A program made the position numbers and the translations under genes. A model generated the notes under the pieces. That model searched no databases. It saw nothing but the letters and a program-made list of their open reading frames with translations, and was not told the origin of the DNA. From a virus (taxonomy: Duplodnaviria > Heunggongvirae > Uroviricota > Caudoviricetes): a stretch of 49,376 bases of DNA. Below are positions 4,418-17,640 of the stretch, piece by piece (position 1 is the stretch's first letter; the number at the start of each line of letters is the position of its first letter). The DNA lies in IMG/VR virus record IMGVR_UViG_2909251562_000001. One strand, given 5' to 3'.

Positions 4418-4469
4418 GGGCGGCAGAGCAGTCACGGAGTAAACTGATACCGCCAAACGCCACCAGAAA
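4418..4469 (-). ncRNA. dicF: DicF-like small regulatory RNA
   Basis: Minus-strand sequence TTTCTGGTGGCGTTTGGCGGTATCAGTTTACTCCGTGACTGCTCTGCCGCCC followed by a T-run closely matches the ~53-nt E. coli DicF sRNA as recalled from memory. Lies in a ~500-bp stretch of the leftward operon with no convincing ORF. Confidence 0.6.
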
Positions 4470-10675: not shown

Positions 10676-11230
10676 TCAATTATCTAAAATTGTGCTAAAT
10701 CTTTTTATTACCATTAAGAACGTTATAACAGTGATAAAAAAGGATGCATAGGATAAAAAGCTAACAATATATGCAGGTGCGCGAAAATACCATTTCATTA
10801 AATCTACTGCATTGTCAGGCAGGAAATATATTATCACTGAAAATATAACCAATACTATTGAAGTTAATATTGCATAAGCGACGTTGTGGCATAACTGCTC
10901 ATATATGGTTTTGTTAGTGTTTAATGATATCAATTTGTCTCGGGATTTGTTTCCTTCAATTATGTCTGATATCTTAGTGATGGTTTTTTGTTTTTGTTCA
11001 TAAATCATTATTACTGCACTCATTAATAGTGCTGTTGTAATAGCCCCGAAGTTAACGAAGACGGAAGCAATTGCCGGTTTCATTATTCCGTATGTCCAGC
11101 ACAGAACGAAAGAAAGAGATAACGGAACAATAAAATGTACGATAATGTCGCTCATCAACATTGTTCCACGCTGATCTGACATTGTTTTGTAGTGTTTTAT
11201 TATTACACCCAGCACATTTATTTTATTCAT
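10676..11230 (-). CDS. four-helix integral membrane protein (candidate effector of a two-gene module)
   Basis: 184 aa with four long hydrophobic segments. Its ATG overlaps the upstream gene's stop (ATGA). Very AT-rich. Confidence 0.7.
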   Translation of the reverse strand: MNKINVLGVIIKHYKTMSDQRGTMLMSDIIVHFIVPLSLSFVLCWTYGIMKPAIASVFVNFGAITTALLMSAVIMIYEQKQKTITKISDIIEGNKSRDKLISLNTNKTIYEQLCHNVAYAILTSIVLVIFSVIIYFLPDNAVDLMKWYFRAPAYIVSFLSYASFFITVITFLMVIKRFSTILDN

Positions 11231-12159
11231 ATAATCACCCCTTTGTTTCCGCTATGCAGTTCTAACAATATATCATTAGAAAGGTTTTTTATCGTGTCAT
11301 GAAGTGCTGTTAGATCAGGTATGCCTGTTAATGGGTCGATTTTTAAATCATTATCATCTAACTCTGCGGAAATTCCTTTTTTTAGTATGGTCTCATAATT
11401 GAAAACGACAGTCCGACTGCCGAGTTGTAAGCTTACTTTTATTGCATCACATTTATCTTCAATAATCTCAATGATGTTTCCTATATTCTTGTTTCTTAAA
11501 TCCCTGAAACTTCCGAACATGCCATTGTTTGCTTTTATTATTAAGTCTGTCTTGATGTTTGTTTTGTTTTGACCAAAGGAATCAGCAATGTCTTTTGGTG
11601 CTTTATATCCTTGAGCCTTAATTTGTTTTAATTCGGAATTGAGAATATATTGAGGGATTTTCTTATGATGTAATGGATTGATTCTTGCTTCGAGTTGAAA
11701 TTTGTTTTTTAGATATTCAGTGATAGAATCAGAAAGGACACCTCGAGCAGAAATATTATCGCAAGAGTGGAATGCAATAATTCCTTCTTCAAGGGTGTCT
11801 GGTAGGTATATTAAAATATAACGTTCTTTGAGTGTTACATCATAAGCAGTTGTCCTATAGTGGATTTTTTTGAGTTTTACATCTTTTATTTCACTGCTTT
11901 CTCCATATTTCCCAACTTTTATATAACCATATATAATTTTCTTTGAGTTATCAAAGTGAAGTTTAGCGTGTTGTTCCAGAGATATTTTAGTTTTGGATAC
12001 GCCAAACTCGATAGGGGTGTTTTTATATAGAGTAAAATAATCAACAAAAAGTTCATATGCCGTTTTTTTATTACTTAAACCCAATTCATTAAGTTTTTTG
12101 CTGGCTCGACTGCCTTTATGGGTCAATACGCGGAATGAATAGAAATTAACGCTGTGCAT
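11227..12159 (-). CDS. 310-aa protein of unknown function (candidate sensor/enzyme partner)
   Basis: Long AT-rich ORF, Lys/Ile/Asn-rich, no motif I can recognise by eye; translationally coupled to the downstream membrane protein. Confidence 0.7.
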   Translation of the reverse strand: MHSVNFYSFRVLTHKGSRASKKLNELGLSNKKTAYELFVDYFTLYKNTPIEFGVSKTKISLEQHAKLHFDNSKKIIYGYIKVGKYGESSEIKDVKLKKIHYRTTAYDVTLKERYILIYLPDTLEEGIIAFHSCDNISARGVLSDSITEYLKNKFQLEARINPLHHKKIPQYILNSELKQIKAQGYKAPKDIADSFGQNKTNIKTDLIIKANNGMFGSFRDLRNKNIGNIIEIIEDKCDAIKVSLQLGSRTVVFNYETILKKGISAELDDNDLKIDPLTGIPDLTALHDTIKNLSNDILLELHSGNKGVII

Positions 12160-12585
12160 GAAAAGTCCTTTTGAACATATAGGAGTATACTAGAACATAA
12201 ATAGATGCAATGCATAAAGGAAAAGCTACCGCAGGGCGAACTCACCCACCGATAACTCTTAACTGGTTGTTTGTAAAAGATAATACATAAATTTGGGTCT
12301 GTGTAAAGAGGTAAGCATCGTCAGGGCAAGGGAGATGTGTTAGGCAATATTGGTAAAATTTACGTTGAGGATAAAAACGGTTTGCGGGAAAAGGAGAGTT
12401 AAGTAGAATTGCTGCGGGTGCTTGAGGCTATCTGTCTCAGGCATGAACACCAAAAGGCAGATAGAGAAAAGCCCCAGTTAACATTACGCGTCCTGCAAGA
12501 CGCCTAACATTAATCTGAGGCCCAATCTATGTCTCACAAATGTAGGTTAGCCTCTTACGTGCCGAAAGGCAAGGAGAAGCAGGCT

Positions 12586-12741
12586 ATGAAGCAGCAAAAG
12601 GCGATGTTAATCGCCCTGATCGTCATCTGTTTAACCGTCATAGTGACGGCACTGGTAACGAGGAAAGACCTCTGCGAGGTACGAATCCGAACCGGCCAGA
12701 CGGAGGTCGCTGTCTTCACAGCTTACGAACCTGAGGAGTAA
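12586..12741 (+). CDS. hokD: Hok/Gef-family toxin (HokD/RelF-like)
   Basis: MKQQKAMLIALIVICLTVIVTALVTRKDLCEVRIRTGQTEVAVFTAYEPEE, 51 aa, matches the Hok family signature and E. coli RelF/HokD as recalled. Structured leader upstream. Confidence 0.85.
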   Translation: MKQQKAMLIALIVICLTVIVTALVTRKDLCEVRIRTGQTEVAVFTAYEPEE

Positions 12742-12808
12742 GAGACCAGGCGGGGGCGAAATCCCTCGCCACCTCTGATGTGTCAGGCATCCTCAACGCA
12801 CCCGCACT

Positions 12809-12831
12809 TAACCCGCTTCGGCGGGTTTTTT
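12809..12831 (+). terminator. rho-independent terminator (copy 1 of a 23-bp repeat)
   Basis: TAACCCGCTTCGGCGGGTTTTTT: hairpin plus T-run downstream of hok. Confidence 0.7.
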
Positions 12832-12832
12832 A

Positions 12833-12879
12833 TTGGTTGACAAAATTATGAATATGCACCAATATCTTGGTTGACAAAA
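12833..12879 (+). promoter_or_regulatory. tandem 13-bp direct repeats, each with a TTGACA -35 hexamer
   Basis: TTGGTTGACAAAA at 12833-12845 and again at 12867-12879, just upstream of the cassette's first gene. Confidence 0.4.
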
Positions 12880-12914: not shown

Positions 12915-13508
12915 ATGCAGAACCATCCATTCCCTTGGGAGTTCTTTCCTGAGTTAACAGAGGAGCGTTTAACCATTATAGCTGAGGAGTTGCTCAGGAT
13001 ACAGGATATTACTCATGAGTTATTGTCATCGCCCTATGATGATAATTACACTCGTGGTGGTTGTACATTTGGGCGTCAGCGGCAGGCGTTGCTACAAATG
13101 TGCGTACGAAAGACATATGACTGGTTAAGACTACTTAATCCTGGCATGGATCTTACGTTTTCAATTGGGAATGTCCCTATTCGTTTCTTTACTGATGACG
13201 CAGATAACCCCAAGAAACGCGGTTTTTTCAAAAGAAATGATGCTGATCGACTCTTTGAGTCAGAGGAGACTACTCCAACTATGCATCGCTTTGTGGTTGA
13301 AAAGCCTGAATTTGAAGGCGAGGGTGGTAGAGTCATTTTTAATGGCTATAACGTGTTTGGTGAGATCGTGTCAACTTGGACATATGGTGCGGACCGTGTT
13401 GTTATGCTGAACTCTGTCGATGATGTACCTCCAGCACCGGTACCTATCGAACTAGAACCTATCAGTGCGTCTAAGACTGAGAAGGAAAAGAAACAAAATA
13501 GCAAATAG
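12915..13508 (+). CDS. 197-aa protein of unknown function (candidate toxin/effector)
   Basis: ATG 12915 preceded by GGCGGAG; no recognisable motif; 10 nt upstream of the XRE/ImmA gene. Confidence 0.6.
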   Translation: MQNHPFPWEFFPELTEERLTIIAEELLRIQDITHELLSSPYDDNYTRGGCTFGRQRQALLQMCVRKTYDWLRLLNPGMDLTFSIGNVPIRFFTDDADNPKKRGFFKRNDADRLFESEETTPTMHRFVVEKPEFEGEGGRVIFNGYNVFGEIVSTWTYGADRVVMLNSVDDVPPAPVPIELEPISASKTEKEKKQNSK

Positions 13509-13518
13509 TGGGTGAAAT

Positions 13519-14640
13519 GTGTTTAACGGTACTAATTTAAGACTTGCTCGTCTGTATCACGAGCTATCTCTGGAGCAGGTTGCTGAGAAGGTTGAAAAAA
13601 CACGCCAGTATGTACAGCGACTGGAGTCTGGTTCAGCTACTCCATCCCCAGAGCTTATAAATAAATTAGCCGAGGTTTTGCGCGTGAAGCCCGCCTTTTT
13701 CGAAGGGCAGGAACATTCTCCTGTTAATGAAGAGATTGTACATTTTCGTAAACGCGCCTCGACAAGGATGTCAACGAAGCTATCAACACTCGCTAAGGCT
13801 GAGTTTTATCGTCGTTTTATTGATGTATTTGAAGATAACCTTAATTTGTCACCTGTTCGATTTCCTGAATTTCGTGTCCATACACAAGAAGATATCGAGC
13901 GAGCGGCAGAAAAATGTCGTATTGAGTGGGGCTTAGGCTTTGGCCCAATTGAAAATATGACTCGCCTTGCCGAGAAACTTGGGGCGTTTGTTACTTCATT
14001 TGACTCCGTTTCGGATGAAGTAGATGCACTGTCTGTTCCTCTACGAAGGCCTTTTATTGTTCGAAATACAGCTAAAAATTCACCTTGTAGGCAACGCTTT
14101 GATATTGCTCATGAGGTTGCCCATTTGATTCTTCATGAAGGAATTTCTACTGGGGATAGATTAACTGAATCCCAGGCAAACCGTTTTGCCTCTGCTCTGT
14201 TGCTTCCCAGAACGTCGATGGCGAAATATTTTCCAAGACCTGTGGGGGGGAGGATAAATTGGCAGGGACTAAGCCAATTTAAGTTGACATGGAAAGTAAG
14301 TAAGGCTGCCATTGTTTACAGGGCTCATCAATTAGGACTTTTGACTGATGAGCAGTACAGAACTGCATTTATGGGGTTGAAACGGAAAGGGGAAGCTATT
14401 GATGAAAAAGAAGATTATCTAATCCCTCATGAGCGTCCTGAGTTATTCCGTCGGGCTTTATCGTTTTTATTTGAAGAGTTAGGATACGACCCACAGCGTA
14501 TAGCTGATGAAATGGATATAGAAGTGGACATTTTTTATGAGTTAGCAGGAGATGATCTTCCTGCGGTTCATGAACTGCCAGGAAGTGGTGATGTTGTTTC
14601 ACTACAATCTTACCGAACTCTTAGAGGCAAAATTCACTAG
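13519..14640 (+). CDS. XRE-family HTH fused to ImmA/IrrE-type zinc metallopeptidase (COG2856-like)
   Basis: N-terminal HTH (LSLEQVAEKVEKTRQYVQRLESG) and HEXXH motif HEVAHLILH in a 373-aa protein. Confidence 0.8.
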   Translation: MFNGTNLRLARLYHELSLEQVAEKVEKTRQYVQRLESGSATPSPELINKLAEVLRVKPAFFEGQEHSPVNEEIVHFRKRASTRMSTKLSTLAKAEFYRRFIDVFEDNLNLSPVRFPEFRVHTQEDIERAAEKCRIEWGLGFGPIENMTRLAEKLGAFVTSFDSVSDEVDALSVPLRRPFIVRNTAKNSPCRQRFDIAHEVAHLILHEGISTGDRLTESQANRFASALLLPRTSMAKYFPRPVGGRINWQGLSQFKLTWKVSKAAIVYRAHQLGLLTDEQYRTAFMGLKRKGEAIDEKEDYLIPHERPELFRRALSFLFEELGYDPQRIADEMDIEVDIFYELAGDDLPAVHELPGSGDVVSLQSYRTLRGKIH

Positions 14641-17330: not shown

Positions 17331-17406
17331 GGCCCTTTAGCTCAGTGGTGAGAGCGAGCGACTCATAATCGCCAGGTCGCTGGTTCAAATCCAGCAAGGG
17401 CCACCA
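17331..17406 (+). tRNA. tRNA with CAU anticodon (Ile2 lysidine-type or Met)
   Basis: 76 nt with encoded CCA; 7-bp acceptor stem GGCCCTT/AAGGGCC; anticodon loop CUCAUAA; closely resembles E. coli ileX as recalled. Confidence 0.85.
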
Positions 17407-17407
17407 A

Positions 17408-17484
17408 CCGTCACCAGTTCATCAGGAAAGAGCGTCAACCCTTTAAGTTGAGTGTGCGAGGTTCGAGTCCCCGGTGGCGGTCCA
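17408..17484 (+). tRNA. atypical tRNA-like gene (anticodon loop CCUUUAA, possibly Lys-UUU)
   Basis: 77 nt ending in CCA; acceptor CCGTCAC/GTGGCGG (one G-U pair); T-arm with TTCGAGT loop; anticodon stem TCAAC/GTTGA. Position 33 is C rather than U and the 5' nucleotide is C. Confidence 0.4.
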
Positions 17485-17486
17485 GT

Positions 17487-17562
<76 letters not shown>

Positions 17563-17565
17563 TAT

Positions 17566-17640
<75 letters not shown>

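What the first reader, a model, noticed from the sequence alone, without database searches (positions are those of the whole stretch)
12480..12831. Orphan Hok-family toxin without adjacent relBE
The 51-aa Hok/RelF-like toxin is intact with a structured leader and its own terminator. In the Qin-type arrangement I recall, relB-relE precede hokD; here the neighbours are the two candidate modules. An antisense Sok-like RNA and overlapping mok frame are expected but could not be delimited by eye.
Basis: partly seen in the sequence, partly recalled or inferred. Interest (0 to 1): 0.45.

Follow-up and report, generated by a model that had tools for sequence, protein, structure and literature searches.

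The report
Complete prophage hok/mok/sok toxin–antitoxin cassette
This is an ordinary, complete copy of the well-known hok/mok/sok killer-gene cassette carried by a lambda-like prophage of E. coli; it has its own antisense antidote RNA, so it is not an orphan toxin.

Summary
An intact 51-aa Hok toxin gene (12586-12741), a structured leader and a terminator (12810-12833) are present.

The toxin is not orphan. The cassette has:
- a mok leader frame (12529-12741, in frame with hok);
- an antisense Sok gene (minus strand, about 12537 to 12467) with its own promoter;
- every RNA switch element described for plasmid R1 hok mRNA: tac, metastable hairpin, ucb, mok SD, dcb and fbi.

Main evidence:
- Rfam RF01794 scores 118.6 bits, against a threshold of 59.
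- The full-length RNA folds with z = -7.6.
- The 5'-3' pairing shows compensatory changes in 35 relatives.

The Hok protein is identical to K-12 HokD. [quoted passage not shown]

Lack of relBE is the common state. 4105 of 5426 complete E. coli genomes carry this full leader; 1172 carry the relE-hokD junction, in which relBE has replaced the leader.

Verdict: already known, low interest.

Side notes: a RosmerTA defence pair lies downstream, an uncharacterised two-gene module lies upstream, and the Sok recognition tail is hypervariable.

The parts
12382..12409 (+). hok/mok mRNA promoter: -35 TTGCGG (12382-12387), 16-nt spacer, -10 TAGAAT (12404-12409)
   Evidence: Read. A TAnAAT/TATAnT-type -10 sits at the same distance from the GGG start in all 35 relatives, while the sequence further upstream diverges. 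The consensus scan did not flag it because it matches only 8 of 12 positions. The assignment is an inference.
12416..12833 (+). Full-length hok mRNA (418 nt), from the start site to the end of the terminator T run
   Evidence: The Rfam model begins at 12416. In the R1-type plasmid control the model also begins at the known mRNA 5' end. MFE -165.9 kcal/mol, z = -7.6.
12416..12429 (+). tac (translational activator element), GGGUGCUUGAGGCU. It pairs with fbi, with the metastable partner or with ucb, one at a time.
12434..12444 (+). 3' arm of the metastable 5' hairpin that sequesters tac in the nascent transcript
   Evidence: The first 35 nt fold into this hairpin at -16.9 kcal/mol, z = -4.0. It is 96.3% paired in 35 relatives, and position 4/28 shows U-A 22 against C-G 12.
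12469..12475 (+). ucb / anti-SD box AAGCCCC. It pairs with the mok SD in the closed form and with tac in the open form.
   Evidence: Closed stem in the MFE, with compensatory pairs in helix 4. The tac/ucb stem is the MFE of nt 1-60 and is 99.6% paired and invariant in relatives.
12467..12537 (-). sok gene: antisense Sok RNA of about 71 nt. It has a 5' single-stranded tail (GUGAGACAUAGAUU), a long hairpin and a GGGGCUUUU end. It is complementary to ucb, the mok SD and the mok start codon.
   Evidence: Projected from the sokW feature of phage 933W. The hairpin folds at -33.7 kcal/mol, z = -5.35. Expression was not tested here.
12544..12572 (-). Sok promoter on the minus strand: -35 TTGCCT (12572 to 12567), 17-nt spacer, -10 TAACCT (12549 to 12544)
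   Evidence: Read. The architecture is kept in all 35 relatives (TTGCCT or TTGACC, 17 nt, TAAYCT-like). The sequence is identical in 933W, where mutating the sokW promoter abolished antitoxin activity (PMC8621323). The consensus scan did not flag it because it matches only 7 of 12 positions.
12517..12520 (+). mok Shine-Dalgarno GAGG
   Evidence: Invariant in 35 relatives. It pairs with ucb in the closed fold and with dcb in the open fold.
12529..12741 (+). mok reading frame (70 codons, in frame with hok, so its product is an N-terminally extended Hok)
   Evidence: The ATG is kept in 33 of 35 relatives, in frame 0 or +1 relative to hok. It is 90% identical to MokW.
12533..12539 (+). Loop of the Sok-target hairpin (CUCACAA, contains a YUNR motif), complementary to the 5' end of Sok
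   Evidence: Hairpin. Positions 12532-12536 are hypervariable among close relatives.
12549..12554 (+). dcb box AGCCUC. It pairs with the mok SD in the processed (open) form.
   Evidence: Constrained fold of the truncated RNA. The five pairs are 100% paired and invariant.
12572..12576 (+). hok Shine-Dalgarno AGGAG
   Evidence: Read. Conserved block AAGGAG. Homology with K-12 hokD begins here.
12586..12741 (+). hok toxin gene (51 aa plus stop), identical to K-12 HokD/RelF
12724..12727 (+). UACG motif at the Tyr47 codon, in a small stem-loop (12719-12721 with 12731-12733). It is a TadA-type A-to-I editing site that would recode Tyr to Cys.
   Evidence: TTACGAA is invariant in 35 relatives. The stem pairs covary: C-G 21 against U-A 14, and G-C 22 against A-U 11. 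Editing of hokD is reported in PMC12214031. Editing was not tested here.
12791..12803 (+). fbi (fold-back inhibition element), CCUCAACGCACCC, pairs with tac
   Evidence: MFE pairs 1-12 with 376-388. Duplex energy -21.5 kcal/mol, and an equivalent duplex occurs in the relatives. Compensatory U-A 22 against C-G 11.
12810..12833 (+). Intrinsic terminator of hok mRNA (stem 12810-12827, then a T run)
   Evidence: Homology to other E. coli copies ends at about 12830.

Best explanation
The locus is a complete, canonical hok/mok/sok type I toxin-antitoxin cassette of the hokD/hokW subtype. It sits in the early-right region of a Rac-like lambdoid prophage, between the replication genes and DUF968-RusA-Q.

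Inferred mechanism, by homology with plasmid R1 hok/sok and with hokW-sokW:
1. A weak promoter at 12382-12409 makes a stable 418-nt mRNA.
2. While the RNA is being made, a 5' hairpin (12418-12428 with 12434-12444) hides tac.
3. In the finished RNA, tac (12416-12429) pairs with fbi (12791-12803), and ucb (12469-12475) covers the mok ribosome-binding site (12517-12520). The RNA can then neither be translated nor bound by Sok.
4. Slow 3' trimming removes fbi. tac switches to ucb, and the mok SD moves into a hairpin with dcb (12549-12554). That hairpin's loop (12533-12539) is the entry site for Sok.
5. The short-lived Sok RNA of about 71 nt (minus strand, 12537 to 12467, own promoter at 12544-12572) pairs with this region, blocks mok translation, and marks the duplex for RNase III. 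Because hok translation is coupled to mok, no toxin is made.
6. If Sok supply stops, the stable mRNA pool is translated and the 51-aa Hok peptide depolarises the inner membrane. Sok supply could stop through loss of the prophage, prophage induction or transcription shut-off by an infecting phage.

Shown here: all sequence elements, their conservation and covariation, and the energetics of the two folds. Inferred: transcription, processing, Sok turnover, toxicity and the biological role. The closest tested relative points to help with lysis and phage release on induction. Prophage addiction and phage exclusion are the other known roles of the family.
For: Toxin:
- Pfam HOK_GEF 1.2e-23.
- Same RefSeq protein as HokD.

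Leader:
- Rfam RF01794 scores 118.6 bits on the sense strand.
- That is higher than the positive controls: 933W at 113.5 and an R1-type plasmid at 88.9. K-12 hokD gives no hit.

Folds:
- The full-length MFE contains tac/fbi and ucb/SD, z = -7.6.
- In the full-length RNA the closed form is 12.4 kcal/mol more stable than the open form.
- After removal of 44 nt from the 3' end the gap is 0.8 kcal/mol, and the open form shows tac/ucb plus SD/dcb stems.

Conservation in 35 relatives from Escherichia, Kluyvera, Citrobacter, Pseudocitrobacter, Pantoea and Photorhabdus:
- 84.9% of cells are paired, against 40-47% for slid controls, and 36 pairs have changes on both sides.
- tac position 4 covaries with its fbi partner (U-A 22, C-G 11) and with its metastable-hairpin partner (U-A 22, C-G 12).
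- The tac/ucb and SD/dcb stems are invariant.
- The mok ATG is kept in 33 of 35.
- The Sok and hok promoter architectures are kept.

Other:
- The Sok hairpin has z = -5.35.
- The R1 switch model follows the description in PMC9841398.
Against: - No expression, processing or toxicity data exist for this copy.
- Both promoters are weak by consensus (8 of 12 and 7 of 12 matches), and the promoter scan missed both.
- The unconstrained MFE of the truncated RNA keeps the closed ucb/SD stem and forms the 5' hairpin rather than the tac/ucb stem. The open form is near-isoenergetic, not favoured, in this calculation.
- The tac/ucb and SD/dcb stems never vary, so they carry no covariation evidence.
- Most chromosomal hok loci of K-12 are reported to be inactive (PMC12214031), so an intact sequence does not prove activity.
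- The Sok tail differs from sokW at 6 positions within 12532-12539 (plus 12528). These changes are on both strands by construction, so they cannot break pairing.
Confidence: 0.9

Rival explanations
1. Orphan or decayed Hok toxin. On this view it is a stand-alone toxin gene without a working antitoxin or regulatory leader, comparable to K-12 hokD, kept silent or on its way to loss.
For: RefSeq annotates only 'hokD' here and nothing over the leader. The protein is identical to K-12 HokD, whose locus does lack the regulatory parts.
Against: The leader, mok, the Sok promoter, the Sok hairpin, tac and fbi are all present and match the family model. K-12 hokD shares only the part from about 12572 onward and gives no Rfam hit.
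Confidence: 0.02
2. Intact in sequence but functionally silent. On this view the cassette is carried passively with the prophage backbone, is expressed too weakly to matter or needs rare mRNA editing to be toxic, and has no phenotype.
For: Both promoters are weak by consensus. hokD mRNA editing at the Tyr-to-Cys site is only 6% in K-12, and the second cysteine is reported as important in HokB (PMC12214031). Deleting hokW-sokW had no effect on growth without induction (PMC8621323).
Against: The switch elements are strictly conserved across genera, with compensatory changes. The cassette is present in about three quarters of complete E. coli genomes, often in several copies. HokW, whose mature region is 47/51 identical and which carries Tyr at the same position, is toxic and its loss halves phage release (PMC8621323).
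Confidence: 0.07
3. Same cassette, but its main role here is abortive-infection defence, acting as one member of a small prophage defence island with its neighbours. On this view an infecting phage shuts off host transcription, Sok decays, and Hok kills the cell before the phage completes.
For: A RosmerTA pair lies directly downstream: RmrT 5.5e-93 and RmrA 8.2e-201 in PADLOC. A low-GC uncharacterised two-gene module lies directly upstream. Plasmid R1 hok/sok has been reported to exclude T4, as cited in PMC8621323 and in 10.1101/2025.08.07.668861.
Against: - A survey found that hok genes are not enriched near defence systems (12% against 9.4% expected), although they are enriched in prophages (10.1101/2025.08.07.668861).
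- In most related prophages the same cassette sits between ordinary small phage ORFs and DUF968-RusA-Q, with no defence genes beside it.
- Only 32 of 5426 genomes share this window's flanks, so the neighbourhood looks like cargo inserted beside a fixed backbone element.
Confidence: 0.15

Closest known systems
hokW-mokW-sokW of Stx2 phage 933W / Sakai prophage Sp5
   Same: The DNA is 93.8% identical over 434 nt. The order of mok, hok and antisense sok is the same. Mok is 90% identical. The hok promoter, tac, ucb, Sok promoter, dcb and fbi sequences are identical. Both sit on a lambdoid prophage. hokW-sokW was shown experimentally to be a type I TA that speeds lysis and doubles phage release on induction (PMC8621323).
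   Different: The Sok 5' tail and target loop differ: CUAUGUCUCACAAAUGU here against CCAUGCUGAACACAUGU in 933W. The Hok C-terminus differs (FTAYEPEE here, FVDYESEK in HokW). The sequence after fbi, including the terminator, is unrelated. In 933W the cassette lies near the attR end of the phage, whereas here it lies upstream of DUF968-RusA-Q.
hokD (relF) of the E. coli K-12 Qin prophage, downstream of relBE
   Same: The Hok protein is identical (WP_000813254.1). The DNA is 98.8% identical from the hok SD to the terminator. The prophage position is the same, upstream of DUF968 and Q.
   Different: In K-12 everything upstream of about 12572 is replaced by relB-relE. K-12 therefore has no hok promoter, tac, ucb, mok start or Sok gene and no Rfam leader hit. 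The window has the whole regulatory region and no relBE. The relE-hokD junction is the minority arrangement: 1172 genomes, against 4105 with the full leader.
hok/sok (parB) of plasmid R1, the paradigm of the family
   Same: The element order and logic are the same: tac, hairpin, ucb, mok SD, mok, dcb and Sok promoter, hok SD, hok, fbi. Shared sequence blocks are GCUUGAGGCU, GGCAGA..AGCCCC, AGGWUAGCCUCUUAC, GCAAGGAGAAG and GCUUACGAA. The same Rfam model hits both. The mechanism is described in PMC9841398.
   Different: HokW, the 933W counterpart of this toxin, is only 44% identical to R1 Hok (PMC8621323). In R1 mok is out of frame with hok, whereas here it is in frame. The Sok-target hairpin carries an extra 18-nt top here. 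R1 is on a plasmid and serves post-segregational killing; this copy is on a prophage.
hokC (gef)-mokC-sokC of the E. coli chromosome
   Same: mok is in frame, giving a 69-70-aa extended product. The toxin is about 80% identical. tac and fbi are the same.
   Different: The leader is about 20 nt shorter because it lacks the extended top of the Sok-target hairpin. It is a chromosomal locus, not a prophage one. The K-12 copy showed no tac/fbi duplex in its 3' UTR in my scan (L016), which agrees with the reported insertion-element inactivation (PMC12214031).

Membership tests
[quoted passage not shown] | Toxin ORF of about 50 aa of the Hok/Gef family | tested here: met
   Pfam PF01848 at 1.2e-23, 82.9 bits against a cut-off of 22. 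PHROG 251 at 2.8e-33. Identical to HokD.
[quoted passage not shown] | mok leader frame with its own SD, starting upstream of hok and overlapping it | tested here: met
   ATG at 12529 with GAGG 8 nt upstream, reading through hok. The ATG is kept in 33 of 35 relatives, in frame 0 or +1.
[quoted passage not shown] | cis-encoded antisense Sok gene: a promoter on the opposite strand inside the mok/hok-SD region, and an RNA of about 65-70 nt with a free 5' tail and a terminator hairpin | tested here: met
   -35 TTGCCT, 17 nt, -10 TAACCT at 12572 to 12544, kept in 35 relatives and identical to 933W. Hairpin -33.7 kcal/mol, z = -5.35, then CUUUU. Transcription itself could not be tested.
[quoted passage not shown] | Long-range tac/fbi pairing that closes the full-length mRNA | tested here: met
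   12 pairs in the MFE. Duplex energy -21.5 kcal/mol, and the duplex is found in the relatives. Compensatory U-A 22 against C-G 11.
[quoted passage not shown] | ucb sequesters the mok SD in the closed form; tac/ucb and SD/dcb stems form in the 3'-processed form | tested here: met
   The closed stem has compensatory pairs (helix 4). The open form is 12.4 kcal/mol less stable in the full-length RNA and 0.8 kcal/mol less stable after 3' truncation. Both open-form stems are 99.6-100% paired but invariant. The unconstrained MFE of the truncated RNA did not adopt the open form.
[quoted passage not shown] | Metastable 5' hairpin that hides tac during transcription | tested here: met
   It is the MFE of nt 1-35 at -16.9 kcal/mol, z = -4.0. 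96.3% paired, three pairs with changes on both sides, slid controls 29-53%.
[quoted passage not shown] | Match to the curated covariance model of the locus (Rfam RF01794) | tested here: met
   118.6 bits against a gathering score of 59, over the full model 1-157. Controls: 933W 113.5, R1-type plasmid 88.9, K-12 hokD no hit. The model matches the sense strand, so it describes the hok leader rather than Sok itself.
[quoted passage not shown] | Differential RNA stability, 3' exonucleolytic processing, RNase III cleavage of the duplex, and membrane toxicity of Hok | not testable with these tools
   Shown for R1 (summarised in PMC9841398) and in part for hokW-sokW (PMC8621323). No data exist for this copy.
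Qin-type relB-relE-hokD arrangement of E. coli K-12 | relBE directly upstream of hok, with the hok leader missing | tested here: not met
   No RelB or RelE match in the window; best E-value 0.5. The full leader is present. The K-12 junction lies at about window position 12572.

The most novel reading that the evidence does not exclude
The short stretch that forms the Sok 5' tail and the loop of its target hairpin (12532-12539) may act as a private address. On this view diversifying change here insulates each hok/sok copy from the Sok RNAs of the other copies in the same genome (up to 10 in E. coli), so every prophage keeps its own independent addiction or lysis timer.

Evidence so far:
- Among 10 copies that are at least 91% identical, positions 12532-12535 are multi-allelic, with 5-6 minority states each.
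- In co-resident Photorhabdus copies the leader can be identical over 107 columns and over the following 43, yet differ at 9 of the 25 columns around the mok start.

This was not tested functionally. Relaxed constraint on a loop, or a mutational hot spot, could explain the same pattern. An analogous discrimination mechanism may already be described for other type I families.
Probability: 0.35. Interest if true: 0.35.

Novelty: already known. Interest (0 to 1): 0.08.

Why it matters
There is little new biology in the locus. The cassette, its RNA switch and its presence in lambdoid prophages are all documented, and a 94%-identical copy has been tested experimentally.

The practical value is in annotation:
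- RefSeq labels only 'hokD' and leaves the leader, mok and Sok unannotated.
- The Rfam 'sok' model actually marks the sense-strand leader.
- The K-12 relBE-hokD arrangement, often taken as the reference, is the truncated minority form.

A reader of this prophage should treat 12369-12833 as one self-contained type I TA unit. It is a fixed backbone landmark, and variable cargo has been inserted on both sides of it: RosmerTA downstream and an uncharacterised pair upstream.

Tried and rejected
1. My first assignment of 'ucb' was wrong. I took AGCCUC...GUGCC (12549-12563) to be the tac partner and counted pairs for it. PMC9841398 places ucb upstream of the mok SD. The correct box is AAGCCCC (12469-12475), and AGCCUC is dcb. 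The apparent covariation of tac position 4 with alignment column 150 should not be used as evidence.

2. The unconstrained fold of the 3'-truncated RNA did not give the published open form. I therefore compared constrained folds. They show the open form becoming near-isoenergetic, not favoured.

3. The consensus promoter scan found neither the hok nor the Sok promoter. Both assignments rest on position, conservation and the 933W experiment.

4. The MAFFT alignment shifts the fbi 5' half in Photorhabdus by one base, so pairs 7-12 of tac/fbi look partly broken. The per-locus duplex calculation shows that they pair.

5. A PDB sequence search with Hok found no solved relative.

6. Loci L006, L007, L028 and L044 lack tac and were left out of the alignment as truncated copies.

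7. I ran no further search on a 51-aa peptide of known family.

Full report
**What is at the coordinates.** The stretch 12480-12831 lies inside a longer unit. An ORF at 12586..12741 encodes a 51-aa hydrophobic peptide. It matches Pfam HOK_GEF at E = 1.2e-23 and PHROG 251 'MokW-like host killing' at 2.8e-33. In a 100%-identical E. coli genome it carries the same RefSeq protein accession as K-12 HokD. It is the only Hok-like ORF in the window. An intrinsic terminator follows at 12810-12827 plus a T run. Rfam family RF01794 matches 12416-12591 on the + strand at 118.6 bits, twice its gathering score, E = 1.6e-26. The left border should move to about 12416 for the transcript start, or 12382 for the promoter.

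**What the Rfam hit means.** The model is named 'sok', but it matches the strand that encodes hok and ends at the hok start codon, so it describes the hok mRNA leader. Three controls agree. It hits the sense strand of hokW in phage 933W at 113.5 bits. It hits an R1-type plasmid hok at 88.9 bits, starting at the mRNA 5' end. It finds nothing at K-12 hokD.

**Delimiting mok and Sok.** An ATG at 12529, preceded by GAGG at 12517-12520, opens a 70-codon frame that runs in frame into hok. It is 90% identical to MokW. The ATG is kept in 33 of 35 relatives. Its frame relative to hok is 0 in most and +1 in others. That pattern fits a leader whose translation matters more than its peptide.

On the minus strand, TTGCCT (12572 to 12567), a 17-nt spacer and TAACCT (12549 to 12544) form a promoter. 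Its architecture is kept in all 35 relatives and is identical in 933W. Projecting the annotated sokW feature onto the window gives Sok at 12537 to 12467. That RNA has a 14-nt free 5' tail, a long hairpin (-33.7 kcal/mol, z = -5.35) and a GGGGCUUUU end. It is complementary to ucb, the mok SD and the mok start codon.

The hok promoter is read as TTGCGG, 16 nt, TAGAAT (12382-12409). Its -10 sits at a fixed distance from the GGG start in every relative, while the upstream sequence diverges. Neither promoter passed the consensus scan, so both are assignments by position, conservation and homology.

**The RNA switch.** The 418-nt transcript folds to -165.9 kcal/mol (z = -7.6). Its first 12 nt pair with 12791-12803, and AAGCCCC (12469-12475) pairs across the mok SD. 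These are the tac/fbi and ucb/SD stems of the closed, untranslatable full-length hok mRNA described for plasmid R1 (PMC9841398).

I collected 53 loci from other genomes. I aligned 35 that keep a tac, from Escherichia, Kluyvera, Citrobacter, Pseudocitrobacter, Pantoea and Photorhabdus.
- On the window's fold, 84.9% of cells pair, against 40-47% when partners are slid, and 36 pairs show changes on both sides.
- tac position 4 covaries with its fbi partner (U-A 22, C-G 11) and with its partner in the 5' metastable hairpin (U-A 22, C-G 12). This is the coupled pattern expected when one segment has alternative partners.
- Per-locus duplex calculations find a tac/fbi duplex of -18 to -27 kcal/mol in nearly all full copies.

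The first 35 nt fold into the metastable hairpin. The first 60 nt fold into the tac/ucb stem.

Constrained folding shows the expected effect of 3' processing. The open form (tac/ucb) is 12.4 kcal/mol worse than the closed form in the full-length RNA. It is only 0.8 kcal/mol worse after 44 nt are removed. It then shows the mok SD paired with AGCCUC (dcb, 12549-12554) in a hairpin whose loop, 12533-12539, faces the Sok 5' tail. The open-form stems are 99.6-100% paired in relatives but invariant, so they carry no covariation signal. The unconstrained fold of the truncated RNA stayed closed. The switch is thus energetically plausible here, not demonstrated.

**How it most likely works.** By homology the cassette works like R1 hok/sok.
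- A stable, initially inert mRNA is slowly activated by 3' trimming.
- A short-lived antisense RNA blocks mok, and through translational coupling blocks hok. It also triggers RNase III cleavage.
- A membrane-depolarising peptide is made once Sok supply stops.

For the nearest relative, hokW-sokW, several steps were shown experimentally (PMC8621323). HokW is toxic. Mutating the sokW promoter unmasks the toxicity. Protection needs RNase III and Hfq. sokW disappears after mitomycin C in a RecA-dependent way, HokW then appears in the inner membrane about an hour before the endolysin, and deleting the locus delays lysis and halves phage release. I consider that role the best supported for this prophage copy. 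Prophage addiction and phage exclusion are alternatives that are not mutually exclusive.

**Why 'orphan without relBE' is the wrong frame.** K-12 hokD aligns with the window only from about 12572 (the hok SD) to the terminator. Upstream of that point K-12 has relE. K-12 therefore lacks the promoter, tac, ucb, the mok start and the Sok gene. This agrees with the literature statement that the locus lost canonical components by rearrangement (PMC12214031).

In 5426 complete E. coli genomes:
- the full leader is present, at 80% coverage or more, in 4105, with a median of two copies per genome and up to eight;
- the relE-hokD junction is present in 1172.

The window holds the complete, common form, and the Qin arrangement is the truncated one. 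No relBE is present in the window.

**Context.** The window matches a Rac-like lambdoid prophage next to ompW in E. coli 67-1. In related prophages the same block of about 460 bp (window about 12369/12396 to 12830) sits between small early genes and a small ORF, DUF968, RusA and Q. The block has sharp borders and variable flanks. Only 32 genomes share this window's flanks.

The cassette has about 51% GC. It lies between a 31-35% GC block upstream and a 43% GC block downstream. Downstream is a RosmerTA pair: RmrT 5.5e-93 and RmrA 8.2e-201 in PADLOC, a family described in PMC10440598. Upstream, on the other strand, is a two-gene module with no family assignment, found in 21 genomes.

A recent survey reports that hok is enriched in prophages but not near defence systems (10.1101/2025.08.07.668861). 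This fits a reading in which hok is a backbone landmark beside which cargo has been inserted, rather than a member of a defence operon.

**Comparison and verdict.** The locus meets every sequence-testable defining feature of the hok/sok family and fails the defining feature of the Qin relBE-hokD arrangement. The closest known elements are, in order:
1. hokW-mokW-sokW of 933W/Sp5 (93.8% DNA identity);
2. K-12 hokD (identical toxin, truncated locus);
3. hokC/gef;
4. R1 hok/sok.

It is already known, and interest is low. The most novel reading left open concerns the Sok tail and target loop. It is hypervariable among near-identical copies and differs between copies in one genome, which may insulate co-resident cassettes from each other.

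Noticed in passing
window 10676-12159 (minus strand), promoter-like site 12307 to 12280: A two-gene operon encodes 310 aa (11227-12159) and a hydrophobic 184 aa (10676-11230), with a 4-nt overlap. GC is 31-35%. There is no Pfam, NCBIfam, PADLOC or PDB sequence match; the only hits are PHROGs 15676 and 15250, both of unknown function. It occurs in 21 of 5426 complete E. coli genomes. A TTTACA-16-TATTAT promoter-like site lies upstream. It is uncharacterised cargo next to known defence genes and a candidate worth its own study.
   Followed up: partly
window 12915-14640 (+): A RosmerTA phage-defence toxin-antitoxin pair lies directly after the hok terminator. RmrT (197 aa, 12915-13508) scores 5.5e-93 in PADLOC. 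RmrA (373 aa, 13519-14640, HTH plus ImmA/IrrE peptidase) scores 8.2e-201. The family is described in PMC10440598. A different pair in the same slot is seen in strain EC67.
   Followed up: partly
window 12833-12845 and 12867-12879: The 13-nt direct repeat TTGGTTGACAAAA occurs twice, 34 nt apart, between the hok terminator and rmrT. Each copy contains TTGACA. It may be the promoter or operator of the RosmerTA operon (read).
   Followed up: no
window 12719-12733: The Tyr47 codon of hok sits in an invariant UUACGAA inside a small stem-loop whose stem covaries (C-G 21 against U-A 14; G-C 22 against A-U 11). This matches the TadA A-to-I editing motif, which would recode Tyr to Cys. Editing of hokD mRNA at this site is reported at 6% in K-12 (PMC12214031).
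   Followed up: partly
window 12532-12539; loci L033-L047 and L005, L008, L013: The Sok 5' tail and target-hairpin loop are hypervariable. They are multi-allelic among copies at least 91% identical. In Photorhabdus, co-resident copies can be identical over the rest of the leader yet differ at up to 9 of 25 columns here.
   Followed up: partly
window 12416-12591; L001 2887-3061; L061 300-476: Rfam RF01794, named 'sok antitoxin', matches the sense strand of the hok leader in the window, in 933W and in an R1-type plasmid. The strand of a hit should therefore not be read as the strand of Sok. RefSeq leaves the leader, mok and Sok unannotated in E. coli genomes.
   Followed up: yes
window 4418-4468 (-), 17331-17637 (+), 49130-49333 (+): Other RNA features of the prophage are a DicF sRNA (69.6 bits), three tRNA genes downstream of the Q antiterminator gene, and an IS009 RNA match (122.2 bits) near the window end. 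In the 100%-identical genome the tRNAs are annotated Ile, Thr and Gly.
   Followed up: no
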